Assembly (NCBI GenBank): GCA_009914755.4
Contig: CP086569.2
Span: 29,504,001-29,568,000, forward strand
Direction of reading: 5' to 3'
Length of the DNA: 64,000 bases
Origin: the human T2T-CHM13v2.0 reference genome, Homo sapiens
The notes beneath the pieces were generated by a model. That model searched no databases. It was not told the origin of the DNA and worked only from the letters and a program-made list of their open reading frames with translations. How positions within the stretch are numbered: position 1 is the first letter of the stretch; each line of letters begins with the position of its first letter. A program made the translations under genes and the position numbers. Shown one piece after another: positions 40,726 to 64,000 of the stretch.

Positions 40726-43700
40726 ATGGAATCGAATGGAAAGGACTCGAATGGAAATCACTCGAATAGAATGCAATTTAATAAAATAGGATCAAATGTA
40801 ATGGAATGGAATGGAAAGGAATCGAAACGAAAGGAATGGAGACAGATGGAATGGAATGGAACAGAGAGCAATGGTATAGAATGGAATGGAATCATCTGGA
40901 ATGGAATTGAATGGAATGGAAAAATATGAAATGGAATGGAATGGAATGGAATGCCCTTGAATTAAATGGACTGGAATGGAATGGACTCGAACAGAGTGGA
41001 ATGGAAAGTGTTGAGATAGAATGGAATGGACTCCTTTGGAATGGTGTAGTATGCAATGCAATCGACTGGCAGGGAATCAAAAGGAATGTAATCGAATGGA
41101 TTGGACTGGAATGCAATGGACTCGAATAGATTGGAAACGGAATGCAAAGGAATGGAATGGAATAGTATGGAATGGAATGGAAAGGAATGGAGTGGAATAG
41201 ACTAGAGTGGAATGGAATGGACTCGAAAGCAATGGACTGGAATGGAACTTTCTTGAATGGACTGGAATCAAACGGAATGGAATGCAATGCAATCAAATGG
41301 CATGGAATAAAATAGAATGAAAGAGAATCAAATGGAACTGAATCGAATATAATCGAATGGATTGGAAAGGAATAGAATGGAATGGAATGGAATTGACTCA
41401 AATGGAATGGACTAGAATGGAATGGATTCGAATGGAAGGCAAATGAATGGAATCTATTGGAATGGACTGTAATGGAATGGAATGGAAGGGATTGGAATGG
41501 ACTCGATTGTAATGGACTGCAATACAAAGGATGCGAATGGAATGAAAAAGAATTGAATGGAATAGAACAGAATGGAATCAAATCGCATGAAATGGAATGG
41601 AATAGAAAGGAATGGAATGAAATGGAATGGAAAGGATTCGAATGGAATGCAATCGAATGGAATGGAATCGAACGGAATGGAATAAAATGGAAGAAAACTG
41701 GCAAGAAATGGAATCGAAATGAATGGAGTGTTATGGAACGGACTCAAAAGGAATTGAATGTAATAGAATGGAGTGGAGTGGACTCGAATATAATGGACTT
41801 GAATGGAATGAAATCACATGGAATGGGAACGAATGGAATCGAATGGAAAGGAATCGAATCGAATGGAAAGGAATCGAATGGAAGGGAATGAAATTGAATC
41901 AACAGGAATGGAAGGGAATAGAATAGACGGTAATGGAATGGACTCGAATAGAATGGACACGAATGCTCAAATTGAATGGACTCGAATGGAATGGAAACGA
42001 AAGGAATGTCATCGAATGGAATTGAATCGATTGGAATGAAATCGCATAGAATGGAGTGGAATCAAATGGAATTGAATCGAAAGGAAAGGAAGCGAATGGA
42101 CTGAAATGAAATGGAATGGAATTGAATGGAAAGTAATGCAATGGAATAGAATGGAACGAAATTTCACGGAATGGAATCAAACTGAATGGAATCAAATCAA
42201 TGGAATCAAATCAAATGGAATGGAAAGGAATTGAATGGAGTAGATTGGATTGGATGGGATTGGAATGAAATGTACTGGAAAGGACTCGAATTTCATGAAA
42301 CGGAATGGAATGAATTGGAACGGAATGGACTCGAATGGAATGGAATGTCATGGAATGGCATCAAATGGAATGGCATCAAATGGAATGGAATCGAATGCAA
42401 TGGAATGCTATGGAATGGAATGGAATGCATTGGAATGGAATGTCCTCTAATGGAATGGATTCGAGTGGAATGGAATCGAATATAATGGAGTCGAATGAAA
42501 TGGAATTGAAAGGAATGGGATCGAATACAATGGAATATACTGGAATGAAATGTAATGAACTCGAATGTAATTGACTGGAATGGAATGTACATGAATGGAA
42601 TGTAATCGAATGGAAAGTAATCTAATGGAATAAAATCTAATGCAATAAAATCGACTCAGATAGAGTAGAATGTAATGGAATGGAGTGCAGTGCAATGGAA
42701 TGGAATGGAATGGAATGCAATGGAATGGAATGGAATGGAATGGAATGGAATGGAATGGGATGGAATGGCATGGAATGGATAGTAATGGACTGGAGTGAAA
42801 TGGACTGGAAAGGAATGGACTCAAATTGAAAGGGCTCGAAAGGAATGGAGTCAAATGGAATGGTCTGGAATGGAATGAACACGAATGTAATGCAATCCAA
42901 TAGAATGGAATCGAATGGCATGGAATATAAAGAAATGGAATCGAAGAGAATGGAAACAAATGGAATGGAATTGAATGGAATTGAATTGAATGGAATGGGA
43001 ACGAATGGAGTGAAATTGTATGCAGTAGAAGAGAATAGAATGGAATGCAAGCGAAAGGAAAGGAATGGATTGGAATGGAATGGAATTCATTGGAATGGAA
43101 GGGAATGTAGTGTAATGGACAGGCCTGGAATAAAGCGGAATGCTACGGTCTCGAATGGAATAAAAATGTATGGAATGGAATGCAATGAAACGGAATCGAA
43201 TGTCATAGAATGTAATGGAATGCAAAAAAATGGACTCCAAAATCATTGACTGGAAAGGCTGGGTGTCGAAAGGAATTGACTCCAATGGAATGGAATCGAA
43301 TGGAATGGAAGTGAATAGAATCGAACTAAATCGAATGGAATGGAATTGATAGGAACGGAATGGAAAGGAATGCAATGATTTGGCATGGAATGGAATCGAA
43401 TGGCATCGAATGGAATGGAATGGAATGCAATGGAATGGAATGTATTAGAAGGTAATGAACTTTAATGGAATGTCCTCGAATGGATTCGACTGTAATGGAA
43501 TGTTCTGGAAGTGAATGAACTCCAATGGAATGGATTCAAAAGGAATGGAATCGTACGGAATGGAATCTAATGGAATGGAATTAAATGGAAATGAATCAAA
43601 TTGAATAGCACGGAATTGAATTGAATGGAATCAAATGCAATGGAATCTAATGAAACAGAAAGGAAAGGAATGGAATGGAATGGAATGGGCTGGAATGGAA

Positions 43701-44279
43701 AGGAATCGAAACGAATGGAATGGAATCGAACTGAAGAGACTGGAATGGAATGCACTGGAATGGAAGGGAGTGTAATGGAAGGTTCTCGACAAAAATGGAA
43801 TCGAATGGAATGGAATTGAATAGAACGGAATAGAGTCGAATGGAATTGAATGGAATGGAATGGACTAGAGTGAAATGGAATAGAACCACAAGGAATGGAC
43901 AGGAATAGAATGGTCTCGAATTGAATGGAATCGTATGGAATGGCATCAAACGGAATGGAATGGACAGCCACGGAATGGAATGCACTCGAATGCAATGGAG
44001 TCGAAACTAGTGGACTGGAATAGAATGGACTTGACTGGTACGGACTCGAAAGGAATGGAATCGAATGGAAGGGAATCGAACGGAATGGACTCGAAGGGAA
44101 AAGACTGCAATGGAAAGGTCTCGAATGGAATGGAAATTTATGGAATGGAATGGAATCGAATGAAATGGAGTCAAAAGGAATGGAATCGATTGGCAAGAAA
44201 TCGAATGTAATGGAATCGCTAGGAATTGATGTGAACGGAACGGTATGGAATGGAATCCAAAGGAATGGAATAGAATGGA
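40726..44279. repeat. HOR unit U13, long form (3554 bp); variant type A
   Basis: Landmark spacing. Near-identical copies lie at +10666 (U16) and +14220 (U17). Confidence 0.8.
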
Positions 44280-47200
44280 ATGGAATAGAATGGAAAGGAC
44301 TCGAATGGAAATCACTCGAATAGAATGCAATTTAATAAAATAGGATCAAATGTAATGGAATGGAATGGAAAGGAATCGAAACGAAAGGAATGGAGACAGA
44401 TGGAATGGAATGGAACAGAGAGCAATGGTATTGAATGGAATGGAATCATCTGGAATGGAATTGAATGGAATGGAATAATATGAAATGGAATTGAATGGAA
44501 TGGAATGGAATGCCCTTGAATTAAATGGACTGGAATGGAATGGACTCGAACAGAGTGGAATGGAAAGTGTTGAAATAGAATGGAATGGACTGCTTTGGAA
44601 TGGTCTAGTATGCAATGCAATCGACTGGCAGGGAATCAAAAGGAATGTAATCGAATGGATTGGACTGGAATGCAATGGACTCGAATAGATTGGAAACGGA
44701 ATGCAAAGGAATGGAATGGAATAGTATGGAATGGAATGGAAAGGAATGGAGTGGAATAGACTAGAGTGGAATGGAATGGACTCGAAAGCAATGGACTGGA
44801 ATGGAACTTTCTTGAATGGACTGGAATCAAATGAATGGAATGCAATGCAATCAAATGGCATGGAATAAAATAGAATGAAAGAGAATCAAATGGAATTGAA
44901 TCGAATGGAATCGAATGGATTGGAAAGGAATAGAATGGAATGGAATGGAATGGACTAGAATGGAATGGATTCGAATGGAAGGCAAAGGAATGGAATCTAT
45001 TGGAATGGTCTGTAATGGAATGGAATGGAAGGGATTGGAATGGACTCGAATTGAATGGACTGCAATAGAAAGGATGCGAATGGAATGAAAAAGAATTGAA
45101 TGGAATAGAACAGAATGGAATCAAATCGCATGAAATGGAATGGAATAGAAAGGAATGGAATGAAATGGATTGGAAAGGATTCGAATGGAATGCAATCGAA
45201 TGGAATGGAATCGAACGGAATGGAATAAAATGGAAGAAAACTGGCAAGAAATGGAATCGAAATGAATGGAGTGTTATGGAACGGACTCAAAAGGAATTGA
45301 ATGTAATAGAATGGAGTGGAGTGGACTCGAATATAATGGACTGGAATGGAATGAAATCACATGGAATGGGAACGAATGGAATGGAATGGAAATGAATGGA
45401 ATCGAATGGAAAGGAATCGAATGGAAGGGAATGAAATTGAATCAACAGGAATGGAAGGGAATAGAATAGACGGTAATGGAATGGACTCGAATAGAATGGA
45501 CACGAATGCTCAAATTGAATGGACTCGAATGGAATGAAAAGGAAAGGAATGTCATCGAATGGAATTGAATCGATTGGAATGAAATCGCATAGAATGGAGT
45601 GGAATCAAAGGGAATTGAATCGAAAGGAAAGGAAGCGAATGGACTGAAATGAAATGGAATGGAATTGAATGGAAAGTAATGCAATGGAAGAGAATGGAAG
45701 GAAATTTCACGGAATGGAATCAAACTGAATGGAATCAAATCAATGGAATATAATCAAATGGAATGGAAAGGAATTGAATGGAGTAGATGGGATTGGATGG
45801 GATTGGAATGAAATGTACTGGAAAGGACTCGAATTTCATGAAACGGAATAGAATGAATTGGAACGGAATGGACTCGAATAGAATGGAATGTCATGGAATG
45901 GCATCAAATGGAATGGCATCAAATGGAATGGAATCGAATGCAATGGAATGTTATGGAATGGAGTGGAATGCATTCGAATGGAATGTCCTCTAATGGAATG
46001 CATTCGAGTGGAATGGAATCGAATATAATGGAGTCGAATGAAATGGAATTGAAAGGAATGGGATCGAATACAATGGAATATACTGGAATGTAAGGTAATG
46101 AACTCGAATGTAATTGACTGGAATGGAATGTACATGAATGAAATGTAATCGAATGGAAAGTAATCCAATGGAATAGAATCTAATGCAATAAAATCGACTC
46201 AGATAGAGTAGAATGTAATGGAATGGAGTGCAGTGCAATGGAATGGAATGGAATGGAATGCAATGGAATGGAATGGAATGGAATGGAATGGAATGGAATG
46301 GAATGGAATGGGATGGAATGGCATGGAATGGATAGTAATGGACTGGAGTGAAATGGACTGGAAAGGAATGGACTCAAATTGAAAGGTCTCGAAAGCAATG
46401 AAGTCAAATGGAATGGTCTGGAATGGAATGAACACGAATGTAATGCAATCCAATAGAATGGAATCGAATGGCATGGAATATAAAGAAATGGAATCGAAGA
46501 GAATGGAAACAAATGGAATGGAATTGAATGGAATGGAATTGAATGGAATGGGAACGAATGGAGTGAAATTGTATGCAGTAGAAGAGAATAGAATGGAATG
46601 CAAGCGAAAGGAAAGGAATGGATTGGAATGGAATGGAATTCATTGGAATGGAAGGGAATGTAGTGTAATGGACAGGCCTGGAATAAAGTGGAATGCTACG
46701 GTCTCGAATGGAATAAAAATGTATGGAATGGAATGCAATGAAACGGAATCGAATGTCATAGAATGTAATGGAATGCAAAAAAATGGACTCCAAAATCATT
46801 GACTGGAAAGGCTGGGTGTCGAAAGGAATTGACTCCAATGGAATGGAATCGAATGGAATGGAAGTGAATAGAATCGAACTAAATCGAATGGAATGGAATT
46901 GATAGGAACGGAATGGAAAGGAATGCAATGATTTGGCATGGAATGGAATCGAATGGCATCGAATGGAATGGAATGGAATGCAATGGAATGGAATGTATTA
47001 GAATGTAATGAACTTTAATGGAATGTACTCGAATGGATTCGACTGGAATGGAATGTTGTGGAAGTGAATGGACTCCAATGGAATGGATTCAAAAGGAATG
47101 GAATCGTGCCGAATGGAATCTAATGGAATGGAATTAAATGGAAATAAATCAAATTGAATAGCACGGAATTGAATTGAATGGAATCGAATGCAATGGAATC

Positions 47201-47832
47201 TAATGAAACGGAAAGGAAAGGAATGGAATGGAATGGAATGGGCTGGAATGGAAAGGAATCGAAACGAATGGAATGGAATCGAACTGAAGAGACTGGAATG
47301 GAATGCACTGGAATGGAAGGGAGTGTAATGGAAGGTTCTCGACAAAAATGGAATCGAATGGAATGGAATTGAATGGAACGGAATAGAGTCGAATGGAATT
47401 GAATGGAATGGAATGGACTAGAGTGAAATGGAATCGAACCACAAGGAATGGACAGGAATAGAATGGTCTCGAATTGAATGGAATCGTATGGAATGGCATC
47501 AAACGGAATGGAATGGACAGCCACGGAATGGAATGCACTCGAATGCAATGGAGTCGAAACTAATGGACTGGAATAGAATGGACTCGACTGGTACGGACTC
47601 CAAAGGAATGGAATCGAATGGAAGGGAATCGAACGGAATGGACTCGAAGGGAAAAGACTGCAATGGAAAGGTCTCGAATGGAATGGAAATTAATGGAATG
47701 GAATGGAATCGAATGAAATGGAGTCAAAAGGAATGGAATCGAATGGCAAGAAATCGAATGTAATGGAATCGCAAGGAATTGATGTGAAGGGAACGGAATG
47801 GAATGGAATCCAAAGGAATGGAATAGAATGGA
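44280..47832. repeat. HOR unit U14, long form (3553 bp); variant type B
   Basis: Private variants: the landmark atcgaatgg is changed to atagaatgg at 44280, a 15-bp deletion of aattgactcaaatgg lies near 44951, and there is an extra aattg pentamer near 44490. All reappear exactly at +14220 in U18. Confidence 0.8.
46267..46311 (+). repeat. Pure (AATGG)9 pentamer tract embedded in the HOR; copy number varies between units (about 4-9)
   Basis: By hand count: five pure repeats before gatgg in U4 (~10746-10770), four in U5 (~14311-14330), six in U13 (~42724-42753), nine in U14 here, eight in U15 (~49831-49870). Coordinates are accurate to about 2 bp. Confidence 0.6.
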
Positions 47833-50800
47833 ATGGAATCGAATGGAAAGGACTCGAATGGAAATCACTCGAATAGAATGCAATTTAATAAAATAGGATC
47901 AAATGTAATGGAATGGAATGGAAAGGAATCGAAACGAAAGGAATGGAGACAGATGGAATGGAATGGAACAGAGAGCAATGGTATAGAATGGAATGGAATC
48001 ATCTGGAATGGAATTGAATGGAATGGAATAATATGAAATGGAATGGAATGGAATGGAATGCCCTTGAATTAAATGGACTGGAATGGAATGGACTCGAACA
48101 GAGTGGAATGGAAAGTGTTGAGATAGAATGGAATGGACTCCTTTGGAATGGTCTAGTATGCAATGCAATCGACTGGCAGGGAATCAAAAGGAATGTAATC
48201 GAATGGATTGGACTGGAATGCAATGGACTCGAATAGATTGGAAACGGAATGCAAAGGAATGGAATGGAATAGTATGGAATGGAATGGAAAGGAATGGAGT
48301 GGAATAGACTAGAGTGCAATGGAATGGACTGGAAAGCAATGGACTGGAATGGAACTTTCTTGAATGGACTGGAATCAAACGGAATGGAATGCAATGCAAT
48401 CAAATGGCATGGAATAAAATAGAATGAAAGAGAATCAAATGGAATTGAATCGAATGGAATCGAATGGATTGGAAAGGAATAGAATGGAATGGAATGGAAT
48501 TGACTCAAATGGAATGGACTAGAATGGAATGGATTCGAATGGAAGGCAAATGAATGGAATCTATTGGAATGGACTGTAATGGAATGGAATGGAAGGGATT
48601 GGAATGGACTCGAATGTAATGGACAGCAATAGAAAGGATGCGAATGGAATGAAAAAGAATTGAATGGAATAGAACAGAATGGAATCAAATCGAATGAAAT
48701 GGAATGGAATAGAAAGGAATGGAATGAAATGGAATGGAAAGGATTCGAATGGAATGCAATCGAATGGAATGGAATCGAACGGAATGGAATAAAATGGAAG
48801 AAAACTGGCAAGAAATGGAATCGAAATGAATGGAGTGTTATGGAACGGACTCAAAAGGAATTGAATGTAATAGAATGGAGTGGAGTGGACTCGAATATAA
48901 TGGACTGGAATGGAATGAAATCTCATGGAATGGGAACGAATGGAATGGAATGGAAAGGAATGGAATCGAATGGAAAGGAATCGAATGGAAGGGAATGAAA
49001 TTGAATCAACAGGAATGGAAGGGAATAGAATAGACGGTAATGGAATGGACTCGAATAGAATGGACACGAATGCTCAAATTGAATGGACACGAATGGAATG
49101 GAAACGAAAGGAATGTCATCGAATGGAATTGAATCGATTGGAATGAAATCGCATAGAATGGAGTGGAATCAAATGGAATTGAATCGAAAGGAAAGGAAGC
49201 GAATGGACTGAAATGAAATGGAATGGAATTGAATGGAAAGTAATGCAATGGAAGAGAATGGAAGGAAATTTCACGGAATGGAATCAAACTGAATGGAATC
49301 AAATCAATGGAATATAATCAAATGGAATGGAAAGGAATTGAATGGAGTAGATGGGATTAGATGGGATTGGAATGAAATGTACTGGAAAGGACTCGAATTT
49401 CATGAAACGGAATGGAATGAATTGGAACGGAATGGACTCGAATAGAATGGAATGTCATGGAATGGCATCAAATGGAATGGCATCAAATGGAATGGAATCG
49501 AATGCAATGGAATGCTATGGAATGGAATGGAATGCATTGGAATGGAATGTCCTCTAATGGAATGGATTCGAGTGGAATGGAATCGAATATAATGGAGTCG
49601 AATGAAATGGAATTGAAAGGAATGGGATCGAATACAATGGAATATACTGGAATGTAATGTAATGAACTCGAATGTAATTGACTGGAATGGAATGTACATG
49701 AATGAAATGTAATCGAATGGAAAGTAATCCAATGGAATAGAATCTAATGCAATAAAATCGACTCAGATAGAGTAGAATGTAATGGAATGGAGTGCAGTGC
49801 AATGGAATGGAATGGAATGGAATGCAATGGAATGGAATGGAATGGAATGGAATGGAATGGAATGGAATGGGATGGAATGGCATGGAATGGATAGTAATGG
49901 ACTGGAGTGAAATGGACTGGAAAGGAATGGACTCAAATTGAAAGGGCTCGAAAGGAATGGAGTCAAATGGAATGGTCTGGAATGGAATGAACACGAATGT
50001 AATGCAATCCAATAGAATGGAAACGAATGGCATGGAATATAAAGAAATGGAATCGAAGAGAATGGAAACAAATGGAATGGAATTGAATGGAATGGAATTG
50101 AATGGAATGGGAACGAATGGAGTGAAATTGTATGCAGTAGAAGAGAATAGAATGGAATGCAAGCGAAAGGAAAGGAATGGATTGGAATGGAATGGAATTC
50201 ATTGGAATGGAAGGGAATGTAGTGTAATGGACAGGCCTGGAATAAAGCGGAATGCTACGGTCTCGAATGGAATAAAAATGTATGGAATGGAATGCAATGA
50301 AACGGAATCGAATGTCATAGAATGTAATGGAATGCAAAAAAATGGACTCCAAAATCATTGACTGGAAAGGCTGGGTGTCGAAAGGAATTGACTCCAATGG
50401 AATGGAATCGAATGGAATGGAAGTGAATAGAATCAAACTAAATCGAATGGAATGGAATTGATAGGAACGGAATGGAAAGGAATGCAATGATTTGGCATGG
50501 AATGGAATCGAATGGCATCGAATGGAATGGAATGGAATGCAATGGAATGGAATGTATTAGAATGTAATGAACTTTAATGGAATGTACTCGAATGGATTCG
50601 ACTGGAATGGAATGTTCTGGAAGTGAATGGACTCCAATGGAATGGATTCAAAAGGAATGGAATCGTGCGGAATGGAATCTAATGGAATGGAATTAAATGG
50701 AAATGAATCAAATTGAATAGCACGGAATTGAATTGAATGGAATCGAATGCAATGGAATCTAATGAAACGGAAAGGAAAGGAATGGAATGGAATGGAATGG

Positions 50801-51391
50801 GCTGGAATGGAAAGGAATCGAAACGAATGGAATGGAATCGAACTGAAGAGACTGGAATGGAATGCACTGGAATGGAAGGGAGTGTAATGGAAGGTTCTCG
50901 ACAAAAATGGAATCGAATGGAATGGAATTGAATGGAACGGAATAGAGTCGAATGGAATTGAATGGAATGGAATGGACTAGAGTGAAATGGAATCGAACCA
51001 CAAGGAATGGACAGGAATAGAATGGTCTCGAATTGAATGGAATCGAATGAAATGGCATCAAACGGAATGGAATGTACAGCCACGGAATGGAATGCACTCG
51101 AATGCAATGGAGTCGAAACTAATGGACTGGAATAGAATGGACTCGACTGGTACGGACTCCAATGGAATGGAATCGAATGGAAGGGAATCGAATGGAATGG
51201 ACTCGAAGGGAAAAGACTGCAATGGAAAGGTCTCGAATGGAATGGAAATTAATGGAATGGAATGGAATCGAATGAAATGGAGTCAAAAGGAATGGAATCG
51301 AATGGCAAGAAATCGAATGTAATGGAATTGCAAGGAATTGATGTGAACGGAACGGAATGGAATGGAATCCAAAGGAATGGAATAGAATGGA
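47833..51391. repeat. HOR unit U15, long form (3559 bp); variant type C
   Basis: Near-identical to U19 at +14220, e.g. the 168-aa frames 48561-49067 and 62781-63287. Confidence 0.8.
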
Positions 51392-54300
51392 ATGGAATCG
51401 AATGGAAAGGACTCGAATGGAAATCACTCGAATAGAATGCAATTTAATAAAATAGGATCAAATGTAATGGAATGGAATGGAAAGGAATCGAAACGAAAGG
51501 AATGGAGACAGATGGAATGGAATGGAACAGAGAGCAATGGTATAGAATGGAATGGAATCATCTGGAATGGAATTGAATGGAATGGAATAATATGAAATGG
51601 AATGGAATGGAATGGAATGCCCTTGAATTAAATGGACTGGAATGGAATGGACTCGAACAGAGTGGAATGGAAAGTGTTGAGATAGAATGGAATGGACTCC
51701 TTTGGAATGGTCTAGTATGCAATGCAATCGACTGGCAGGGAATCAAAAGGAATGTAATCGAATGGATTGGACTGGAATGCAATGGACTCGAATAGATTGG
51801 AAACGGAATGCAAAGGAATGGAATGGAATAGTATGGAATGGAATGGAAAGGAATGGAGTGGAATAGACTAGAGTGGAATGGAATGGACTCGAAAGCAATG
51901 GACTGGAATGGAACTTTCTTGAATGGACTGGAATCAAACGGAATGGAATGCAATGCAATCAAATGGCATGGAATAAAATAGAATGAAAGAGAATCAAATG
52001 GAACTGAATCGAATATAATCGAATGGATTGGAAAGGAATAGAATGGAATGGAATGGAATTGACTCAAATGGAATGGACTAGAATGGAATGGATTCGAATG
52101 GAAGGCAAATGAATGGAATCTATTGGAATGGACTGTAATGGAATGGAATGGAAGGGATTGGAATGGACTCGATTGTAATGGACTGCAATACAAAGGATGC
52201 GAATGGAATGAAAAAGAATTGAATGGAATAGAACAGAATGGAATCAAATCGCATGAAATGGAATGGAATAGAAAGGAATGGAATGAAATGGAATGGAAAG
52301 GATTCGAATGGAATGCAATCGAATGGAATGGAATCGAACGGAATGGAATAAAATGGAAGAAAACTGGCAAGAAATGGAATCGAAATGAATGGAGTGTTAT
52401 GGAACGGACTCAAAAGGAATTGAATGTAATAGAATGGAGTGGAGTGGACTCGAATATAATGGACTTGAATGGAATGAAATCACATGGAATGGGAACGAAT
52501 GGAATCGAATGGAAAGGAATCGAATCGAATGGAAAGGAATCGAATGGAAGGGAATGAAATTGAATCAACAGGAATGGAAGGGAATAGAATAGACGGTAAT
52601 GGAATGGACTCGAATAGAATGGACACGAATGCTCAAATTGAATGGACTCGAATGGAATGGAAACGAAAGGAATGTCATCGAATGGAATTGAATCGATTGG
52701 AATGAAATCGCATAGAATGGAGTGGAATCAAATGGAATTGAATCGAAAGGAAAGGAAGCGAATGGACTGAAATGAAATGGAATGGAATTGAATGGAAAGT
52801 AATGCAATGGAATAGAATGGAACGAAATTTCACGGAATGGAATCAAACTGAATGGAATCAAATCAATGGAATCAAATCAAATGGAATGGAAAGGAATTGA
52901 ATGGAGTAGATTGGATTGGATGGGATTGGAATGAAATGTACTGGAAAGGACTCGAATTTCATGAAACGGAATGGAATGAATTGGAACGGAATGGACTCGA
53001 ATGGAATGGAATGTCATGGAATGGCATCAAATGGAATGGCATCAAATGGAATGGAATCGAATGCAATGGAATGCTATGGAATGGAATGGAATGCATTGGA
53101 ATGGAATGTCCTCTAATGGAATGGATTCGAGTGGAATGGAATCGAATATAATGGAGTCGAATGAAATGGAATTGAAAGGAATGGGATCGAATACAATGGA
53201 ATATACTGGAATGAAATGTAATGAACTCGAATGTAATTGACTGGAATGGAATGTACATGAATGGAATGTAATCGAATGGAAAGTAATCTAATGGAATAAA
53301 ATCTAATGCAATAAAATCGACTCAGATAGAGTAGAATGTAATGGAATGGAGTGCAGTGCAATGGAATGGAATGGAATGGAATGCAATGGAATGGAATGGA
53401 ATGGAATGGAATGGAATGGAATGGGATGGAATGGCATGGAATGGATAGTAATGGACTGGAGTGAAATGGACTGGAAAGGAATGGACTCAAATTGAAAGGG
53501 CTCGAAAGGAATGGAGTCAAATGGAATGGTCTGGAATGGAATGAACACGAATGTAATGCAATCCAATAGAATGGAATCGAATGGCATGGAATATAAAGAA
53601 ATGGAATCGAAGAGAATGGAAACAAATGGAATGGAATTGAATGGAATTGAATTGAATGGAATGGGAACGAATGGAGTGAAATTGTATGCAGTAGAAGAGA
53701 ATAGAATGGAATGCAAGCGAAAGGAAAGGAATGGATTGGAATGGAATGGAATTCATTGGAATGGAAGGGAATGTAGTGTAATGGACAGGCCTGGAATAAA
53801 GCGGAATGCTACGGTCTCGAATGGAATAAAAATGTATGGAATGGAATGCAATGAAACGGAATCGAATGTCATAGAATGTAATGGAATGCAAAAAAATGGA
53901 CTCCAAAATCATTGACTGGAAAGGCTGGGTGTCGAAAGGAATTGACTCCAATGGAATGGAATCGAATGGAATGGAAGTGAATAGAATCGAACTAAATCGA
54001 ATGGAATGGAATTGATAGGAACGGAATGGAAAGCAATGCAATGATTTGGCATGGAATGGAATCGAATGGCATCGAATGGAATGGAATGGAATGCAATGGA
54101 ATGGAATGTATTAGAAGGTAATGAACTTTAATGGAATGTCCTCGAATGGATTCGACTGTAATGGAATGTTCTGGAAGTGAATGAACTCCAATGGAATGGA
54201 TTCAAAAGGAATGGAATCGTACGGAATGGAATCTAATGGAATGGAATTAAATGGAAATGAATCAAATTGAATAGCACGGAATTGAATTGAATGGAATCAA

Positions 54301-54945
54301 ATGCAATGGAATCTAATGAAACGGAAAGGAAAGGAATGGAATGGAATGGAATGGGCTGGAATGGAAAGGAATCGAAACGAATGGAATGGAATCGAACTGA
54401 AGAGACTGGAATGGAATGCACTGGAATGGAAGGGAGTGTAATGGAAGGTTCTCGACAAAAATGGAATCGAATGGAATGGAATTGAATGGAACGGAATAGA
54501 GTCGAATGGAATTGAATGGAATGGAATGGACTAGAGTGAAATGGAATCGAACCACAAGGAATGGACAGGAATAGAATGGTCTCGAATTGAATGGAATCGA
54601 ATGAAATGGCATCAAACGGAATGGAATGTACAGCCACGGAATGGAATGCACTCGAATGCAATGGAGTCGAAACTAATGGACTGGAATAGAATGGACTCGA
54701 CTGGTACGGACTCCAATGGAATGGAATCGAATGGAAGGGAATCGAATGGAATGGACTCGAAGGGAAAAGACTGCAATGGAAAGGTCTCGAATGGAATGGA
54801 AATTAATGGAATGGAATGGAATCGAATGAAATGGAGTCAAAAGGAATGGAATCGAATGGCAAGAAATCGAATGTAATGGAATCGCAAGGAATTGATGTGA
54901 ACGGAACGGAATGGAATGGAATCCAAAGTAATGGAATAGAATGGA
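51392..54945. repeat. HOR unit U16, long form (3554 bp); type A-like with a type C-like tail
   Basis: 51558-53915 matches U13 at offset 10666. The tail 54233-54945 matches the U15 tail 50679-51391 at offset 3554. Confidence 0.75.
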
Positions 54946-57900
54946 ATGGAATCGAATGGAAAGGACTCGAATGGAAATCACTCGAATAGAATGCAATTTA
55001 ATAAAATAGGATCAAATGTAATGGAATGGAATGGAAAGGAATCGAAACGAAAGGAATGGAGACAGATGGAATGGAATGGAACAGAGAGCAATGGTATAGA
55101 ATGGAATGGAATCATCTGGAATGGAATTGAATGGAATGGAAAAATATGAAATGGAATGGAATGGAATGGAATGCCCTTGAATTAAATGGACTGGAATGGA
55201 ATGGACTCGAACAGAGTGGAATGGAAAGTGTTGAGATAGAATGGAATGGACTCCTTTGGAATGGTGTAGTATGCAATGCAATCGACTGGCAGGGAATCAA
55301 AAGGAATGTAATCGAATGGATTGGACTGGAATGCAATGGACTCGAATAGATTGGAAACGGAATGCAAAGGAATGGAATGGAATAGTATGGAATGGAATGG
55401 AAAGGAATGGAGTGGAATAGACTAGAGTGGAATGGAATGGACTCGAAAGCAATGGACTGGAATGGAACTTTCTTGAATGGACTGGAATCAAACGGAATGG
55501 AATGCAATGCAATCAAATGGCATGGAATAAAATAGAATGAAAGAGAATCAAATGGAACTGAATCGAATATAATCGAATGGATTGGAAAGGAATAGAATGG
55601 AATGGAATGGAATTGACTCAAATGGAATGGACTAGAATGGAATGGATTCGAATGGAAGGCAAATGAATGGAATCTATTGGAATGGACTGTAATGGAATGG
55701 AATGGAAGGGATTGGAATGGACTCGATTGTAATGGACTGCAATACAAAGGATGCGAATGGAATGAAAAAGAATTGAATGGAATAGAACAGAATGGAATCA
55801 AATCGCATGAAATGGAATGGAATAGAAAGGAATGGAATGAAATGGAATGGAAAGGATTCGAATGGAATGCAATCGAATGGAATGGAATCGAACGGAATGG
55901 AATAAAATGGAAGAAAACTGGCAAGAAATGGAATCGAAATGAATGGAGTGTTATGGAACGGACTCAAAAGGAATTGAATGTAATAGAATGGAGTGGAGTG
56001 GACTCGAATATAATGGACTTGAATGGAATGAAATCACATGGAATGGGAACGAATGGAATCGAATGGAAAGGAATCGAATCGAATGGAAAGGAATCGAATG
56101 GAAGGGAATGAAATTGAATCAACAGGAATGGAAGGGAATAGAATAGACGGTAATGGAATGGACTCGAATAGAATGGACACGAATGCTCAAATTGAATGGA
56201 CTCGAATGGAATGGAAACGAAAGGAATGTCATCGAATGGAATTGAATCGATTGGAATGAAATCGCATAGAATGGAGTGGAATCAAATGGAATTGAATCGA
56301 AAGGAAAGGAAGCGAATGGACTGAAATGAAATGGAATGGAATTGAATGGAAAGTAATGCAATGGAATAGAATGGAACGAAATTTCACGGAATGGAATCAA
56401 ACTGAATGGAATCAAATCAATGGAATCAAATCAAATGGAATGGAAAGGAATTGAATGGAGTAGATTGGATTGGATGGGATTGGAATGAAATGTACTGGAA
56501 AGGACTCGAATTTCATGAAACGGAATGGAATGAATTGGAACGGAATGGACTCGAATGGAATGGAATGTCATGGAATGGCATCAAATGGAATGGCATCAAA
56601 TGGAATGGAATCGAATGCAATGGAATGCTATGGAATGGAATGGAATGCATTGGAATGGAATGTCCTCTAATGGAATGGATTCGAGTGGAATGGAATCGAA
56701 TATAATGGAGTCGAATGAAATGGAATTGAAAGGAATGGGATCGAATACAATGGAATATACTGGAATGAAATGTAATGAACTCGAATGTAATTGACTGGAA
56801 TGGAATGTACATGAATGGAATGTAATCGAATGGAAAGTAATCTAATGGAATAAAATCTAATGCAATAAAATCGACTCAGATAGAGTAGAATGTAATGGAA
56901 TGGAGTGCAGTGCAATGGAATGGAATGGAATGGAATGCAATGGAATGGAATGGAATGGAATGGAATGGAATGGAATGGGATGGAATGGCATGGAATGGAT
57001 AGTAATGGACTGGAGTGAAATGGACTGGAAAGGAATGGACTCAAATTGAAAGGGCTCGAAAGGAATGGAGTCAAATGGAATGGTCTGGAATGGAATGAAC
57101 ACGAATGTAATGCAATCCAATAGAATGGAATCGAATGGCATGGAATATAAAGAAATGGAATCGAAGAGAATGGAAACAAATGGAATGGAATTGAATGGAA
57201 TTGAATTGAATGGAATGGGAACGAATGGAGTGAAATTGTATGCAGTAGAAGAGAATAGAATGGAATGCAAGCGAAAGGAAAGGAATGGATTGGAATGGAA
57301 TGGAATTCATTGGAATGGAAGGGAATGTAGTGTAATGGACAGGCCTGGAATAAAGCGGAATGCTACGGTCTCGAATGGAATAAAAATGTATGGAATGGAA
57401 TGCAATGAAACGGAATCGAATGTCATAGAATGTAATGGAATGCAAAAAAATGGACTCCAAAATCATTGACTGGAAAGGCTGGGTGTCGAAAGGAATTGAC
57501 TCCAATGGAATGGAATCGAATGGAATGGAAGTGAATAGAATCGAACTAAATCGAATGGAATGGAATTGATAGGAACGGAATGGAAAGGAATGCAATGATT
57601 TGGCATGGAATGGAATCGAATGGCATCGAATGGAATGGAATGGAATGCAATGGAATGGAATGTATTAGAAGGTAATGAACTTTAATGGAATGTCCTCGAA
57701 TGGATTCGACTGTAATGGAATGTTCTGGAAGTGAATGAACTCCAATGGAATGGATTCAAAAGGAATGGAATCGTACGGAATGGAATCTAATGGAATGGAA
57801 TTAAATGGAAATGAATCAAATTGAATAGCACGGAATTGAATTGAATGGAATCAAATGCAATGGAATCTAATGAAACAGAAAGGAAAGGAATGGAATGGAA

Positions 57901-58499
57901 TGGAATGGGCTGGAATGGAAAGGAATCGAAACGAATGGAATGGAATCGAACTGAAGAGACTGGAATGGAATGCACTGGAATGGAAGGGAGTGTAATGGAA
58001 GGTTCTCGACAAAAATGGAATCGAATGGAATGGAATTGAATAGAACGGAATAGAGTCGAATGGAATTGAATGGAATGGAATGGACTAGAGTGAAATGGAA
58101 TAGAACCACAAGGAATGGACAGGAATAGAATGGTCTCGAATTGAATGGAATCGTATGGAATGGCATCAAACGGAATGGAATGGACAGCCACGGAATGGAA
58201 TGCACTCGAATGCAATGGAGTCGAAACTAGTGGACTGGAATAGAATGGACTTGACTGGTACGGACTCGAAAGGAATGGAATCGAATGGAAGGGAATCGAA
58301 CGGAATGGACTCGAAGGGAAAAGACTGCAATGGAAAGGTCTCGAATGGAATGGAAATTTATGGAATGGAATGGAATCGAATGAAATGGAGTCAAAAGGAA
58401 TGGAATCGATTGGCAAGAAATCGAATGTAATGGAATCGCTAGGAATTGATGTGAACGGAACGGAATGGAATGGAATCCAAAGGAATGGAATAGAATGGA
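54946..58499. repeat. HOR unit U17, long form (3554 bp); type A (copy of U13)
   Basis: Identical translations at +14220 from U13, e.g. the 209-aa frames 43567-44196 and 57787-58416. Confidence 0.8.
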
Positions 58500-61400
58500 A
58501 TGGAATAGAATGGAAAGGACTCGAATGGAAATCACTCGAATAGAATGCAATTTAATAAAATAGGATCAAATGTAATGGAATGGAATGGAAAGGAATCGAA
58601 ACGAAAGGAATGGAGACAGATGGAATGGAATGGAACAGAGAGCAATGGTATTGAATGGAATGGAATCATCTGGAATGGAATTGAATGGAATGGAATAATA
58701 TGAAATGGAATTGAATGGAATGGAATGGAATGCCCTTGAATTAAATGGACTGGAATGGAATGGACTCGAACAGAGTGGAATGGAAAGTGTTGAAATAGAA
58801 TGGAATGGACTGCTTTGGAATGGTCTAGTATGCAATGCAATCGACTGGCAGGGAATCAAAAGGAATGTAATCGAATGGATTGGACTGGAATGCAATGGAC
58901 TCGAATAGATTGGAAACGGAATGCAAAGGAATGGAATGGAATAGTATGGAATGGAATGGAAAGGAATGGAGTGGAATAGACTAGAGTGGAATGGAATGGA
59001 CTCGAAAGCAATGGACTGGAATGGAACTTTCTTGAATGGACTGGAATCAAATGAATGGAATGCAATGCAATCAAATGGCATGGAATAAAATAGAATGAAA
59101 GAGAATCAAATGGAATTGAATCGAATGGAATCGAATGGATTGGAAAGGAATAGAATGGAATGGAATGGAATGGACTAGAATGGAATGGATTCGAATGGAA
59201 GGCAAAGGAATGGAATCTATTGGAATGGTCTGTAATGGAATGGAATGGAAGGGATTGGAATGGACTCGAATTGAATGGACTGCAATAGAAAGGATGCGAA
59301 TGGAATGAAAAAGAATTGAATGGAATAGAACAGAATGGAATCAAATCGCATGAAATGGAATGGAATAGAAAGGAATGGAATGAAATGGATTGGAAAGGAT
59401 TCGAATGGAATGCAATCGAATGGAATGGAATCGAACGGAATGGAATAAAATGGAAGAAAACTGGCAAGAAATGGAATCGAAATGAATGGAGTGTTATGGA
59501 ACGGACTCAAAAGGAATTGAATGTAATAGAATGGAGTGGAGTGGACTCGAATATAATGGACTGGAATGGAATGAAATCACATGGAATGGGAACGAATGGA
59601 ATGGAATGGAAATGAATGGAATCGAATGGAAAGGAATCGAATGGAAGGGAATGAAATTGAATCAACAGGAATGGAAGGGAATAGAATAGACGGTAATGGA
59701 ATGGACTCGAATAGAATGGACACGAATGCTCAAATTGAATGGACTCGAATGGAATGAAAAGGAAAGGAATGTCATCGAATGGAATTGAATCGATTGGAAT
59801 GAAATCGCATAGAATGGAGTGGAATCAAAGGGAATTGAATCGAAAGGAAAGGAAGCGAATGGACTGAAATGAAATGGAATGGAATTGAATGGAAAGTAAT
59901 GCAATGGAAGAGAATGGAAGGAAATTTCACGGAATGGAATCAAACTGAATGGAATCAAATCAATGGAATATAATCAAATGGAATGGAAAGGAATTGAATG
60001 GAGTAGATGGGATTGGATGGGATTGGAATGAAATGTACTGGAAAGGACTCGAATTTCATGAAACGGAATGGAATGAATTGGAACGGAATGGACTCGAATA
60101 GAATGGAATGTCATGGAATGGCATCAAATGGAATGGCATCAAATGGAATGGAATCGAATGCAATGGAATGCTATGGAATGGAGTGGAATGCATTCGAATG
60201 GAATGTCCTCTAATGGAATGCATTCGAGTGGAATGGAATCGAATATAATGGAGTCGAATGAAATGGAATTGAAAGGAATGGGATCGAATACAATGGAATA
60301 TACTGGAATGTAAGGTAATGAACTCGAATGTAATTGACTGGAATGGAATGTACATGAATGAAATGTAATCGAATGGAAAGTAATCCAATGGAATAGAATC
60401 TAATGCAATAAAATCGACTCAGATAGAGTAGAATGTAATGGAATGGAGTGCAGTGCAATGGAATGGAATGGAATGGAATGCAATGGAATGGAATGGAATG
60501 GAATGGAATGGAATGGAATGGAATGGAATGGGATGGAATGGCATGGAATGGATAGTAATGGACTGGAGTGAAATGGACTGGAAAGGAATGGACTCAAATT
60601 GAAAGGTCTCGAAAGCAATGAAGTCAAATGGAATGGTCTGGAATGGAATGAACACGAATGTAATGCAATCCAATAGAATGGAATCGAATGGCATGGAATA
60701 TAAAGAAATGGAATCGAAGAGAATGGAAACAAATGGAATGGAATTGAATGGAATGGAATTGAATGGAATGGGAACGAATGGAGTGAAATTGTATGCAGTA
60801 GAAGAGAATAGAATGGAATGCAAGCGAAAGGAAAGGAATGGATTGGAATGGAATGGAATTCATTGGAATGGAAGGGAATGTAGTGTAATGGACAGGCCTG
60901 GAATAAAGTGGAATGCTACGGTCTCGAATGGAATAAAAATGTATGGAATGGAATGCAATGAAACGGAATCGAATGTCATAGAATGTAATGGAATGCAAAA
61001 AAATGGACTCCAAAATCATTGACTGGAAAGGCTGGGTGTCGAAAGGAATTGACTCCAATGGAATGGAATCGAATGGAATGGAAGTGAATAGAATCGAACT
61101 AAATCGAATGGAATGGAATTGATAGGAACGGAATGGAAAGGAATGCAATGATTTGGCATGGAATGGAATCGAATGGCATCGAATGGAATGGAATGGAATG
61201 CAATGGAATGGAATGTATTAGAATGTAATGAACTTTAATGGAATGTACTCGAATGGATTCGACTGGAATGGAATGTTGTGGAAGTGAATGGACTCCAATG
61301 GAATGGATTCAAAAGGAATGGAATCGTGCCGAATGGAATCTAATGGAATGGAATTAAATGGAAATAAATCAAATTGAATAGCACGGAATTGAATTGAATG

Positions 61401-62052
61401 GAATCGAATGCAATGGAATCTAATGAAACGGAAAGGAAAGGAATGGAATGGAATGGAATGGGCTGGAATGGAAAGGAATCGAAACGAATGGAATGGAATC
61501 GAACTGAAGAGACTGGAATGGAATGCACTGGAATGGAAGGGAGTGTAATGGAAGGTTCTCGACAAAAATGGAATCGAATGGAATGGAATTGAATGGAACG
61601 GAATAGAGTCGAATGGAATTGAATGGAATGGAATGGACTAGAGTGAAATGGAATCGAACCACAAGGAATGGACAGGAATAGAATGGTCTCGAATTGAATG
61701 GAATCGTATGGAATGGCATCAAACGGAATGGAATGGACAGCCACGGAATGGAATGCACTCGAATGCAATGGAGTCGAAACTAATGGACTGGAATAGAATG
61801 GACTCGACTGGTACGGACTCCAAAGGAATGGAATCGAATGGAAGGGAATCGAACGGAATGGACTCGAAGGGAAAAGACTGCAATGGAAAGGTCTCGAATG
61901 GAATGGAAATTAATGGAATGGAATGGAATCGAATGAAATGGAGTCAAAAGGAATGGAATCGAATGGCAAGAAATCGAATGTAATGGAATCGCAAGGAATT
62001 GATGTGAAGGGAACGGAATGGAATGGAATCCAAAGGAATGGAATAGAATGGA
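58500..62052. repeat. HOR unit U18, long form (3553 bp); type B (copy of U14)
   Basis: Carries the same private variant set as U14 at +14220. Confidence 0.8.
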
Positions 62053-64000
62053 ATGGAATCGAATGGAAAGGACTCGAATGGAAATCACTCGAATAGAATG
62101 CAATTTAATAAAATAGGATCAAATGTAATGGAATGGAATGGAAAGGAATCGAAACGAAAGGAATGGAGACAGATGGAATGGAATGGAACAGAGAGCAATG
62201 GTATAGAATGGAATGGAATCATCTGGAATGGAATTGAATGGAATGGAATAATATGAAATGGAATGGAATGGAATGGAATGCCCTTGAATTAAATGGACTG
62301 GAATGGAATGGACTCGAACAGAGTGGAATGGAAAGTGTTGAGATAGAATGGAATGGACTCCTTTGGAATGGTCTAGTATGCAATGCAATCGACTGGCAGG
62401 GAATCAAAAGGAATGTAATCGAATGGATTGGACTGGAATGCAATGGACTCGAATAGATTGGAAACGGAATGCAAAGGAATGGAATGGAATAGTATGGAAT
62501 GGAATGGAAAGGAATGGAGTGGAATAGACTAGAGTGCAATGGAATGGACTGGAAAGCAATGGACTGGAATGGAACTTTCTTGAATGGACTGGAATCAAAC
62601 GGAATGGAATGCAATGCAATCAAATGGCATGGAATAAAATAGAATGAAAGAGAATCAAATGGAATTGAATCGAATGGAATCGAATGGATTGGAAAGGAAT
62701 AGAATGGAATGGAATGGAATTGACTCAAATGGAATGGACTAGAATGGAATGGATTCGAATGGAAGGCAAATGAATGGAATCTATTGGAATGGACTGTAAT
62801 GGAATGGAATGGAAGGGATTGGAATGGACTCGAATGTAATGGACAGCAATAGAAAGGATGCGAATGGAATGAAAAAGAATTGAATGGAATAGAACAGAAT
62901 GGAATCAAATCGAATGAAATGGAATGGAATAGAAAGGAATGGAATGAAATGGAATGGAAAGGATTCGAATGGAATGCAATCGAATGGAATGGAATCGAAC
63001 GGAATGGAATAAAATGGAAGAAAACTGGCAAGAAATGGAATCGAAATGAATGGAGTGTTATGGAACGGACTCAAAAGGAATTGAATGTAATAGAATGGAG
63101 TGGAGTGGACTCGAATATAATGGACTGGAATGGAATGAAATCTCATGGAATGGGAACGAATGGAATGGAATGGAAAGGAATGGAATCGAATGGAAAGGAA
63201 TCGAATGGAAGGGAATGAAATTGAATCAACAGGAATGGAAGGGAATAGAATAGACGGTAATGGAATGGACTCGAATAGAATGGACACGAATGCTCAAATT
63301 GAATGGACACGAATGGAATGGAAACGAAAGGAATGTCATCGAATGGAATTGAATCGATTGGAATGAAATCGCATAGAATGGAGTGGAATCAAATGGAATT
63401 GAATCGAAAGGAAAGGAAGCGAATGGACTGAAATGAAATGGAATGGAATTGAATGGAAAGTAATGCAATGGAAGAGAATGGAAGGAAATTTCACGGAATG
63501 GAATCAAACTGAATGGAATCAAATCAATGGAATATAATCAAATGGAATGGAAAGGAATTGAATGGAGTAGATGGGATTAGATGGGATTGGAATGAAATGT
63601 ACTGGAAAGGACTCGAATTTCATGAAACGGAATGGAATGAATTGGAACGGAATGGACTCGAATAGAATGGAATGTCATGGAATGGCATCAAATGGAATGG
63701 CATCAAATGGAATGGAATCGAATGCAATGGAATGCTATGGAATGGAATGGAATGCATTGGAATGGAATGTCCTCTAATGGAATGGATTCGAGTGGAATGG
63801 AATCGAATATAATGGAGTCGAATGAAATGGAATTGAAAGGAATGGGATCGAATACAATGGAATATACTGGAATGTAATGTAATGAACTCGAATGTAATTG
63901 ACTGGAATGGAATGTACATGAATGAAATGTAATCGAATGGAAAGTAATCCAATGGAATAGAATCTAATGCAATAAAATCGACTCAGATAGAGTAGAATGT
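62053..64000. repeat. HOR unit U19 (5' 1948 bp, truncated by window end); type C (copy of U15)
   Basis: Matches U15 at +14220 through to the window end. Confidence 0.8.

What the first reader, a model, noticed from the sequence alone, without database searches (positions are those of the whole stretch)
40726..64000. ~14.22-kb four-unit super-repeat (A-B-C-A | A-B-C...) copied at near-perfect identity
Every feature between 40726 and ~49800 reappears exactly 14,220 bp downstream. This includes the private variant set of U14: the landmark changed to atagaatgg at 44280, the 15-bp deletion of aattgactcaaatgg near 44951, and the extra aattg pentamer. It also includes the 209-aa frames 43567-44196 and 57787-58416, and the 168-aa frames 48561-49067 and 62781-63287. 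A second level of repeat organisation, four HOR units long, has therefore been duplicated very recently. Within copy 1, U13 and U16 are nearly the same unit (offset 10666). The tail of U16, 54233-54945, instead matches the tail of U15, pointing to an exchange event inside the block.
Basis: seen in the sequence. Interest (0 to 1): 0.6.

Follow-up and report, generated by a model that had tools for sequence, protein, structure and literature searches.

The report
Recent four-unit duplication in DYZ1 satellite
The window is human Y-chromosome DYZ1 satellite DNA. A 14.2-kb block of four 3.55-kb repeat units has been copied in tandem almost perfectly, which is a real but ordinary product of the unequal exchange known to reshape this satellite.

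Summary
Window 40528-49780 matches 54748-64000 at an offset of exactly 14,220 bp, with 3 substitutions and no indel in 9,253 bp (99.968%). The same stretch aligned to neighbours 1, 2 or 3 units away is 98.5-98.8% identical, with 110-141 substitutions and 5-8 indels.

All 64 kb is a (AATGG)n-derived satellite with ~3.55-kb units. It has one HaeIII site per unit, 38.65% GC and one CpG per 35 bp, which is the published description of human Yq12 DYZ1/HSat3A6.

It runs off the window end, so only 1.65 copies are visible. No 4-unit relation exists upstream.

U16 is a mosaic. It has a U15-like head, a 2.4-2.6-kb U13-like core, a U15-identical tail, and a last 63-198 bp identical to U12, which is the duplication junction.

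The best explanation is one out-of-register (4-unit) homologous exchange, preceded by a conversion-like patch in U16. Published Yq12 mutation rates put it roughly 10^2.5-10^4 generations ago. A multi-copy "second-level HOR" is not shown. The ORFs are translation artefacts of the pentamer repeat. Overall this is ordinary and of low interest.

The parts
40528..54747 (.). Copy 1 of the 14,220-bp duplicated block: the last ~198 bp of U12, then U13, U14, U15 and most of U16
   Evidence: At offset 14,220 there are 3 mismatches in the 9,253 comparable bases. The last background mismatch is at 40527.
54748..64000 (.). Copy 2, cut off by the window end: the last ~198 bp of U16, then U17, U18 and 1,948 bp of U19
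   Evidence: Exact matches of 3716, 1605 and 3829 bp to copy 1. U13/U17 differ at 1 site, U14/U18 at 2 and U15/U19 at 0.
54748..54882 (.). Interval containing the duplication junction (equivalent to 40528-40662 in U12). No novel sequence is present, only a switch of variant phase.
   Evidence: U16 equals U15 and differs from U12 at 54600, 54604, 54629 and 54747. U16 equals U12 and differs from U15 at 54883 and 54929.
40726..44279 (.). U13 (type A), 3554 bp
   Evidence: Unit boundaries from blastn. It shares 15 private columns with U16 and U17, and 8 more with U17 only.
44280..47832 (.). U14 (type B), 3553 bp, carrying the private variant set
   Evidence: 48 private alignment columns are shared only with U18. 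They include the 15-bp deletion after 44951 and two 5-bp insertions.
47833..51391 (.). U15 (type C), 3559 bp
   Evidence: Zero differences from U19 over 1,948 bp.
51392..54945 (.). U16, a mosaic unit with a C-like head, an A-like core, a C-identical tail and a U12-identical end
   Evidence: Segment-wise differences from every unit.
51713..54322 (.). U13-like tract inside U16 (maximum extent; minimum 51876-54299), the conversion-like patch
   Evidence: A 2,321-bp exact match between 41047-43367 and 51713-54033. One private U16 substitution lies at 54034. There is 1 difference from U13 here, against 37 from U15 and 27 from the consensus.
54300..54747 (.). U15-identical tail segment of U16
   Evidence: A 583-bp exact match between 50746-51328 and 54300-54882. 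There are 0 differences from U15, against 11 from U13 and 4 from U12.
54946..58499 (.). U17, the copy of U13
   Evidence: One difference, at 58464 (A) against 44244 (T).
58500..62052 (.). U18, the copy of U14
   Evidence: Two differences, at 60070 and 60171.
62053..64000 (.). U19 (partial), the copy of U15
   Evidence: Zero differences in 1,948 bp.

Best explanation
The window is a stretch of the human Y-chromosome long-arm heterochromatin satellite DYZ1 (HSat3A6), read on its purine-rich (GGAAT) strand. DYZ1 consists of ~3.55-kb units built from diverged CATTC/GGAAT pentamers.

Within it, one 14,220-bp segment of exactly four units has been duplicated head to tail. It runs from a point 63-198 bp before the end of U12 to the same point in U16.

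The most likely mechanism is homologous exchange between two copies of the array paired four units out of register. On the non-recombining Y this would be unequal sister-chromatid exchange. An equivalent homology-directed repair event, such as break-induced replication or template switching, would give the same product. The exchange resolved within the 135-bp interval 54748-54882, equivalent to 40528-40662.

This predicts what is seen: no novel junction sequence, a hybrid junction unit (U16 head plus U12 tail), and two copies that were identical at birth. They have since accumulated 3 substitutions.

Before or around that time, U16 had acquired a 2.4-2.6-kb tract identical to U13. U16 is otherwise a U15-type unit, so the tract is flanked on both sides by U15-type sequence. 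That is the signature of a non-reciprocal gene-conversion patch or a double exchange.

Shown directly: the coordinates, the identity, the hybrid phase switches, and the properties that identify DYZ1. Inferred: the exchange mechanism, the order of events, the age, and the chromosomal origin.
For: Evidence that this is DYZ1:
- The dominant long period is 3,554 bp.
- There are 19 tandem units, 15 of them 3,532-3,569 bp long.
- Each unit has one GGCC (HaeIII) site, giving virtual fragments of 3,533-3,567 bp. GC is 38.65% and there is one CpG per 35.0 bp. One third of all 5-mers are rotations of AATGG.
- Hallast et al. describe DYZ1 as ~3.5 kb, pentameric, HaeIII-defined with a modal fragment of 3,569 bp, 38% GC and 1 CpG per 35 bp.
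- The T2T-Y paper describes ~3.6-kb nested repeats derived from CATTC, with units >98% identical.
- Two DYZ1 sex-typing primers, recalled from memory, hit once per unit in convergent orientation and span 154 bp.
- The same repeat occurs at 96-99% identity in human gut metagenome contigs, and as ~3.6-kb contaminant contigs in bacterial assemblies.

Evidence for the duplication: which give 3 differences in 9,253 bp against 110-174 at other registers.

Evidence for the hybrid junction and the mosaic U16.

Precedent for the mechanism:
- The CEPH pedigree study reports about one de novo structural variant per Y transmission that removes or adds whole DYZ2 units. It also reports that 29% of Yq12 de novo SNVs look like interlocus gene conversion.
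Against: - Copy 2 runs off the window, so the right end of the duplication is unseen. That end is predicted at window-equivalent ~68,967. A longer multi-copy array therefore cannot be excluded.
- No reads are available, so an assembly-made duplicate cannot be formally excluded.
- The sequence could not be aligned to a published DYZ1 consensus or to a Y assembly with these tools. The primer sequences rest on memory, and two paper searches did not find them.
- Unequal crossover cannot be told apart from replication-based duplication by sequence alone.
Confidence: 0.8

Rival explanations
1. The window catches the left edge of a true multi-copy higher-order repeat domain. The 14.2-kb four-unit block would be iterated three or more times downstream, making a locally homogenised sub-array with a third tier of periodicity (5 bp, 3.55 kb, 14.2 kb).
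For: - Copy 2 is still at 100% identity where the window ends.
- Satellite expansions in Yq12 are often iterative.
- Multi-unit periodicities have been reported for the neighbouring DYZ2 satellite, with peaks at 2385, 4757 and 7155 bp.
Against: - Only 1.65 copies are visible.
- There is a sharp left boundary, with nothing at a 4-unit offset upstream: U9-U12 against U13-U16 differ at 54-73 sites.
- The window shows several other small, independent one-off events, such as the U10/U11 twins and the U1-U3 deleted units. This argues for sporadic local events rather than a regular HOR.
Confidence: 0.25
2. The second copy is an assembly artefact: a false duplication made by the assembler in a near-identical satellite.
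For: Yq12 is among the hardest regions to assemble, and population-scale Y assemblies carry flagged issues there. No reads could be examined.
Against: - The copies differ at 3 non-homopolymer substitution sites. A re-used read set would normally give identical consensus.
- The junction unit shows a biologically coherent hybrid structure.
- A 14.2-kb period is within the reach of single HiFi or ONT reads.
Confidence: 0.05
3. The underlying period is three units (10.67 kb, A-B-C) with one extra unit inserted.
For: U13 and U16 differ at only 19 sites at offset 10,666, and share a 2,321-bp exact match.
Against: - The relation at +3 units stops after 2.4-2.6 kb.
- U17 against U14 differs at 68 sites and U18 against U15 at 45, which is background level.
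- Identity of 40528-49780 at +3 units is 98.81%, against 99.97% at +4 units.
Confidence: 0.02
4. The repeated 140-270-aa open reading frames are a duplicated protein-coding gene family.
For: Long ORFs recur in every unit on the minus strand. There are weak Pfam similarities to Pentapeptide_4 and Extensin_1.
Against: - The Pfam hits are below the curated cut-offs: 34.8 bits against a cut-off of 38, and 23-30 bits against 105.
- The ORFs overlap one another in different frames and mostly start at TTG.
- Their sequence is the HSIPF translation of CATTC, which has no stop codon in any frame.
- No gene with either of the two products looked up is on record.
- There is no Rfam match either.
Confidence: 0.01

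Closest known systems
DYZ1 / HSat3A6, the ~3.56-kb HaeIII satellite of human Yq12
   Same: It shares the unit length, the single HaeIII site per unit, the CATTC/GGAAT pentamer substructure, 38% GC, one CpG per 35 bp and >98% identity between units.
   Different: Nothing differs at the family level. The window also holds three 2,850-bp units with a shared 704-bp deletion. I did not find this variant in the main-text passages mentioning DYZ1 that the searches returned.
Recent tandem duplications in Yq12 attributed to unequal exchange (T2T-Y, Extended Data Fig. 8; pedigree de novo SVs of whole DYZ2 units)
   Same: It is a head-to-tail duplication in register with the satellite unit. Identity is near-perfect, there is no novel junction, and conversion-like patches lie nearby.
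   Different: The scale differs. This one is 14.2 kb (4 DYZ1 units). The published examples are up to 5 Mb spanning DYZ1/DYZ2 blocks, or 1-2 DYZ2 units (2.4-4.8 kb) arising de novo.
Alpha-satellite higher-order repeats and 'HOR of HOR' patterns; complex multi-unit HORs of DYZ2
   Same: Identity between blocks exceeds identity between adjacent units inside a block.
   Different: A HOR is defined by many tandem iterations. Here at most two are visible and none lie upstream.

Membership tests
DYZ1 / HSat3A6 | Tandem units of about 3.56 kb | tested here: met
   The best long offset is 3,554 bp. Units are 3,532-3,569 bp long.
DYZ1 / HSat3A6 | One HaeIII (GGCC) site per unit, giving ~3.56-kb fragments | tested here: met
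   There are 17 GGCC sites in 64 kb. Fragments are 3,533-3,567 bp, plus one of 2,850 bp and one of 6,403 bp where U3 lost its site. Hallast et al. use the same digest and find a mode of 3,569 bp.
DYZ1 / HSat3A6 | Built from diverged CATTC/GGAAT pentamers | tested here: met
   32.8% of 5-mers are rotations of AATGG. Self-identity peaks at multiples of 5 bp.
DYZ1 / HSat3A6 | About 38% GC and about 1 CpG per 35 bp | tested here: met
   38.65% GC and one CpG per 35.0 bp, against the values.
DYZ1 / HSat3A6 | Sequence match to a published DYZ1 consensus or to a Y-chromosome assembly | not testable with these tools
   No human reference or consensus is available in the tools. Two proxies exist. Primers recalled from memory hit once per unit with a 154-bp product, but they were not found in the paper library. 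Contaminant contigs in human gut metagenomes match at 96-99% identity.
DYZ1 / HSat3A6 | Male-specific, located in Yq12 | not testable with these tools
   This needs mapping to T2T-CHM13v2.0 chrY, or FISH.
Tandem duplication by out-of-register homologous exchange | Two adjacent head-to-tail copies whose length is a whole number of units | tested here: met
   The offset is 14,220 bp, which equals 3554 + 3553 + 3559 + 3554.
Tandem duplication by out-of-register homologous exchange | Identity between copies far above the array background | tested here: met
   99.968% against 98.1-98.8% at seven other registers.
Tandem duplication by out-of-register homologous exchange | Hybrid junction unit without novel sequence | tested here: met
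   U16 switches from U15-phase to U12-phase between 54748 and 54882.
Tandem duplication by out-of-register homologous exchange | Identity returns to background after one full period on the right | not testable with these tools
   The predicted end, at ~68,967, lies beyond the window. Attempts to extend the window failed.
Higher-order repeat (multi-copy super-repeat) | Three or more tandem iterations of the block | tested here: inconclusive
   1.65 copies are visible. Upstream iterations are absent, and downstream sequence is unseen.
Gene-conversion patch (U16 core) | Donor-identical tract flanked on both sides by sequence of another type, with the donor left intact | tested here: met
   51713-54322 is U13-like, with 1 difference. 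Both flanks are U15-identical, with 0 differences in 51392-51875 and in 54300-54747. U13 itself is intact.
Protein-coding gene | Significant family match or independent gene record | tested here: not met
   Pfam hits are below the cut-offs. The two ORF products looked up, 168 and 270 aa, are not on record. The frames overlap one another.

The most novel reading that the evidence does not exclude
The 14.2-kb block may be the first repeat of a genuine, multi-copy four-unit higher-order repeat domain inside a DYZ1 array. That would be a third nested tier of periodicity (5 bp, 3.55 kb, 14.2 kb). It would mark a locally and very recently homogenised sub-array, usable as a haplogroup-specific marker of Yq12 dynamics.
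Probability: 0.25. Interest if true: 0.3.

Novelty: already known. Interest (0 to 1): 0.12.

Why it matters
It matters little beyond bookkeeping. The finding is a clean, base-resolved example of processes already documented for Yq12. These are unit-register tandem duplication by unequal exchange, and kilobase-scale conversion patches.

Its practical uses are limited:
- The three diagnostic substitutions and the hybrid unit U16 give read-level markers for validating an assembly in this stretch.
- If the block is polymorphic among Y haplogroups, it could help date local DYZ1 turnover.

The ORFs, and the presence of DYZ1 units in bacterial assemblies, are a reminder that this satellite generates spurious proteins and contaminant contigs.

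Tried and rejected
- The repeat finder on 36-64 kb (one search was a parameter error). The output was swamped by the 5/10/15-bp periodicity and did not isolate the 14.2-kb repeat. It did report zero inverted repeats. I used my own offset scans instead.
- Extending the window downstream by looking up exact ORF products near its end. Nothing was on record.
- Scanning metagenome and prokaryote genome collections for a DYZ1-specific 23-mer. This gave 39 loci, all 90-99% identical to window units. None was specific for U13, U14 or U15, and none overlapped the window. The loci support human origin but not extension.
- Confirming the recalled DYZ1 primer sequences in the paper library. They were not found, so the primers remain 'from memory'.
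- Coding reading of the ORFs. Rejected.
- Structured RNA. No Rfam match at gathering thresholds.
- Three-unit period. Rejected.
- The 2.7-kb DYZ18/DYZ1 hybrid repeat of Hallast et al. as an explanation for the short units U1-U3. Rejected, because U1-U3 align to DYZ1 units along their whole length and differ only by one 704-bp deletion.


Full report
**What the window is**

The whole 64-kb window is strongly strand-asymmetric (A 41%, G 30%, T 21%, C 8%) and uniform in composition, at 38-39% GC with a GC skew of about +0.56 throughout. Ungapped self-identity peaks at multiples of 5 bp, and at long range at 3,554 bp.

U4-U18 are 3,532-3,569 bp long. U1-U3 are 2,850 bp long. U19 is cut off by the window end.

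Several properties identify the family:
- Each unit has one GGCC (HaeIII) site, giving virtual fragments of 3,533-3,567 bp.
- GC is 38.65% and there is one CpG per 35.0 bp.
- One third of all 5-mers are rotations of AATGG.

These are the published defining properties of human DYZ1/HSat3A6. Hallast et al. describe it as ~3.5 kb and pentameric, delimited by HaeIII with a modal fragment of 3,569 bp, 38% GC and 1 CpG per 35 bp. The T2T-Y paper describes ~3.6-kb nested repeats derived from CATTC, with units >98% identical.

Two further lines support human origin:
- Two DYZ1 sex-typing primers that I recalled from memory hit once per unit, convergently, 154 bp apart. I could not confirm them in the paper library, so they count only as a lead.
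- A 23-mer from the unit finds the same repeat, 96-99% identical, in human gut metagenome contigs. It also finds one-unit (~3.6-kb) contigs in bacterial isolate assemblies, which is the pattern of male human DNA contamination.

**Check of the observation**

At offset 14,220, identity per 500-bp bin is 99.2-100% from 40001 to 49780, the last comparable base. It is 10-74% everywhere upstream of 40001.

From 40528 to 49780 there are exactly three mismatches, at 44244, 45850 and 45951. The three longest exact repeats in the window (3,829, 3,716 and 1,605 bp) all lie at this offset.

Gapped alignment of 40528-49780 to its partners gave these results:

| Register | Substitutions | Indels | Identity |
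|---|---|---|---|
| +4 units | 3 | 0 | 99.968% |
| +1 unit | 138 | 8 | 98.50% |
| +2 units | 141 | 5 | 98.47% |
| +3 units | 110 | 7 | 98.81% |
| -1 to -4 units | 151-174 | 7-12 | 98.1-98.4% |

The chance probability at background divergence is about 3e-61.

Other details also check out:
- The private variant set of U14 is real and is shared only with U18. It covers 48 alignment columns, including C->A at 44287, an extra pentamer at 44488-44492, the 15-bp deletion after 44951 and another 5-bp insertion at 46263-46267.
- The ORFs are at the stated coordinates, on the minus strand.

**Boundaries**

Between 39686 and 40527, the tails of U12 and U16 differ at 13 sites in 842 bp, which is background. 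After 40527 they are identical.

At 54600, 54604, 54629 and 54747, U16 carries the U15 state and not the U12 state. At 54883 and 54929 it carries the U12 state and not the U15 state. The junction of the duplication therefore lies in 54748-54882, equivalent to 40528-40662.

Copy 1 is 40528-54747. Copy 2 starts at 54748 and is cut off at 64000, so only 1.65 copies are visible. Upstream there is no 4-unit relation, since U9-U12 against U13-U16 differ at 54-73 sites.

**Anatomy of U16**

U16 differs from U13 at 19 sites. Two lie in the first 321 bp, one is a private change at 54034, and 16 lie after 54322.

Segment by segment:

| Segment | Differences from U15 | Differences from U13 | Other comparisons |
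|---|---|---|---|
| 51392-51875 | 0 | 2 | 0 from the consensus |
| 51876-54299 | 37 | 1 | 27 from the consensus |
| 54300-54747 | 0 | 11 | 4 from U12 |
| 54748-54945 | 2 | 5 | 0 from U12 |

U16 is therefore a U15-type unit carrying an internal U13-identical tract of 2.4-2.6 kb, and its end is the duplication junction. A donor-identical tract flanked on both sides by recipient-type sequence, with the donor left intact, is the signature of a gene-conversion patch or a double exchange.

**Mechanism**

The length is a whole number of units, there is no novel junction sequence, the junction unit is a hybrid, and the copies are near-identical. These features are what out-of-register homologous exchange produces.

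On the male-specific Y the natural candidates are unequal sister-chromatid exchange or homology-directed repair with a 4-unit register shift. Published work gives direct precedent:
- About one de novo structural variant per Y transmission that adds or removes whole DYZ2 units, and 29% of Yq12 de novo SNVs attributable to interlocus gene conversion.
- 17% of Yq12 SNV events consistent with gene conversion in a second data set.

The mechanism itself is inferred. Sequence alone cannot separate crossover from replication-based duplication.

**Age**

The divergence is 3 differences in 9,253 bp, or 3.2e-4. Two rates give different answers:
- With the published Yq12 rate of 3.86e-7 per bp per generation, the age is about 420 generations (Poisson 95% interval 87-1,227).
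- With an assumed, uncited lower rate of 3e-8 per bp per generation, the age is about 5,400 generations.

All three differences are derived in copy 1. Two of them lie 101 bp apart, and each carries a state also present in other units (A at 45850 in U4, T at 45951 in U10 and U11). They may therefore be a single micro-conversion rather than two point mutations. 'Recent' is right, but it means hundreds to thousands of generations.

**Rivals**

1. Left edge of a true multi-copy 14.2-kb HOR domain. This is not excluded, because copy 2 is still perfect at the window end, and multi-unit periodicities are known for DYZ2. However, only 1.65 copies are seen and the window contains several other one-off local events. 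I give it 0.25.
2. Assembly artefact. This is unlikely, given three non-homopolymer differences and a coherent hybrid junction, but it cannot be tested without reads. I give it 0.05.
3. Three-unit period plus an extra unit. Rejected.
4. Coding ORFs. Rejected, for these reasons:
   - The frames are HSIPF-type translations of CATTC, which has no stop codon in any frame.
   - They overlap one another.
   - Their Pfam hits are below the cut-offs.
   - The two products looked up are not on record.
   - No Rfam family matches either.

**Verdict**

It is nonetheless an ordinary instance of well-described Yq12 satellite dynamics in a known satellite. The claim of a second tier of repeat organisation is not demonstrated. 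Interest is low.

Noticed in passing
window 203-8751 (U1-U3): Three consecutive units are 2,850, 2,850 and 2,849 bp long. They share one identical 704-bp deletion, equivalent to 42112-42815 of U13, with junctions after 1588, 4438 and 7288. This is a deleted DYZ1 variant that was itself amplified three times. The units differ from each other at only 21-23 sites.
   Followed up: partly
window ~7590-7600 (U3): U3 has lost the HaeIII site (GACAGGCCTGG has become GACACCCTGG). A virtual digest therefore gives a 6,403-bp fragment in place of two unit-length ones.
   Followed up: partly
window 30096-37193 (U10, U11): These adjacent units are near-twins, with 9 differences. They share exact tracts of 1,640 bp (29823 and 33372) and 1,013 bp (31464 and 35013). 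This is another, smaller recent one-unit duplication or conversion.
   Followed up: partly
window 12100-13127, 22764-23883, 26329-27440: An identical tract of ~1.0-1.1 kb spanning a unit boundary occurs three times, at U4/U5, U7/U8 and U8/U9. The units are otherwise 1.5-2% diverged. This suggests patchy conversion throughout the array.
   Followed up: no
window 44244, 45850, 45951 (partners 58464, 60070, 60171): All three differences between the copies are derived in copy 1. The states at 45850 (A) and 45951 (T) also occur in U4 and in U10/U11 respectively, and the two sites lie 101 bp apart. They may be a single micro-conversion rather than two point mutations.
   Followed up: partly
L034-L039 (e.g. 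BMRF01000076.1 Actinomadura cremea JCM 3308; Streptomyces, Streptosporangium, Senimuribacter, Polyangiaceae MAG) and L001-L033: DYZ1 sequence is present in public bacterial genome assemblies and in metagenome contigs, often as contigs of ~3.6 kb, which is one collapsed unit. This is human male DNA contamination in those records.
   Followed up: partly
window 40000-64000, minus strand: There are 31 ORFs of 140-270 aa, 28 of them on the minus strand, mostly starting at TTG and overlapping in different frames. All are of the HSIPF type. They give sub-threshold Pfam hits to Pentapeptide_4 and Extensin_1, caused by the 15-bp (5-aa) periodicity, and are a likely source of spurious protein predictions.
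   Followed up: yes
whole window: The strongest short-range self-identity is at offset 15 bp (0.684), not 5 bp (0.640). This indicates a 15-bp sub-period, three pentamers long, within the unit.
   Followed up: no
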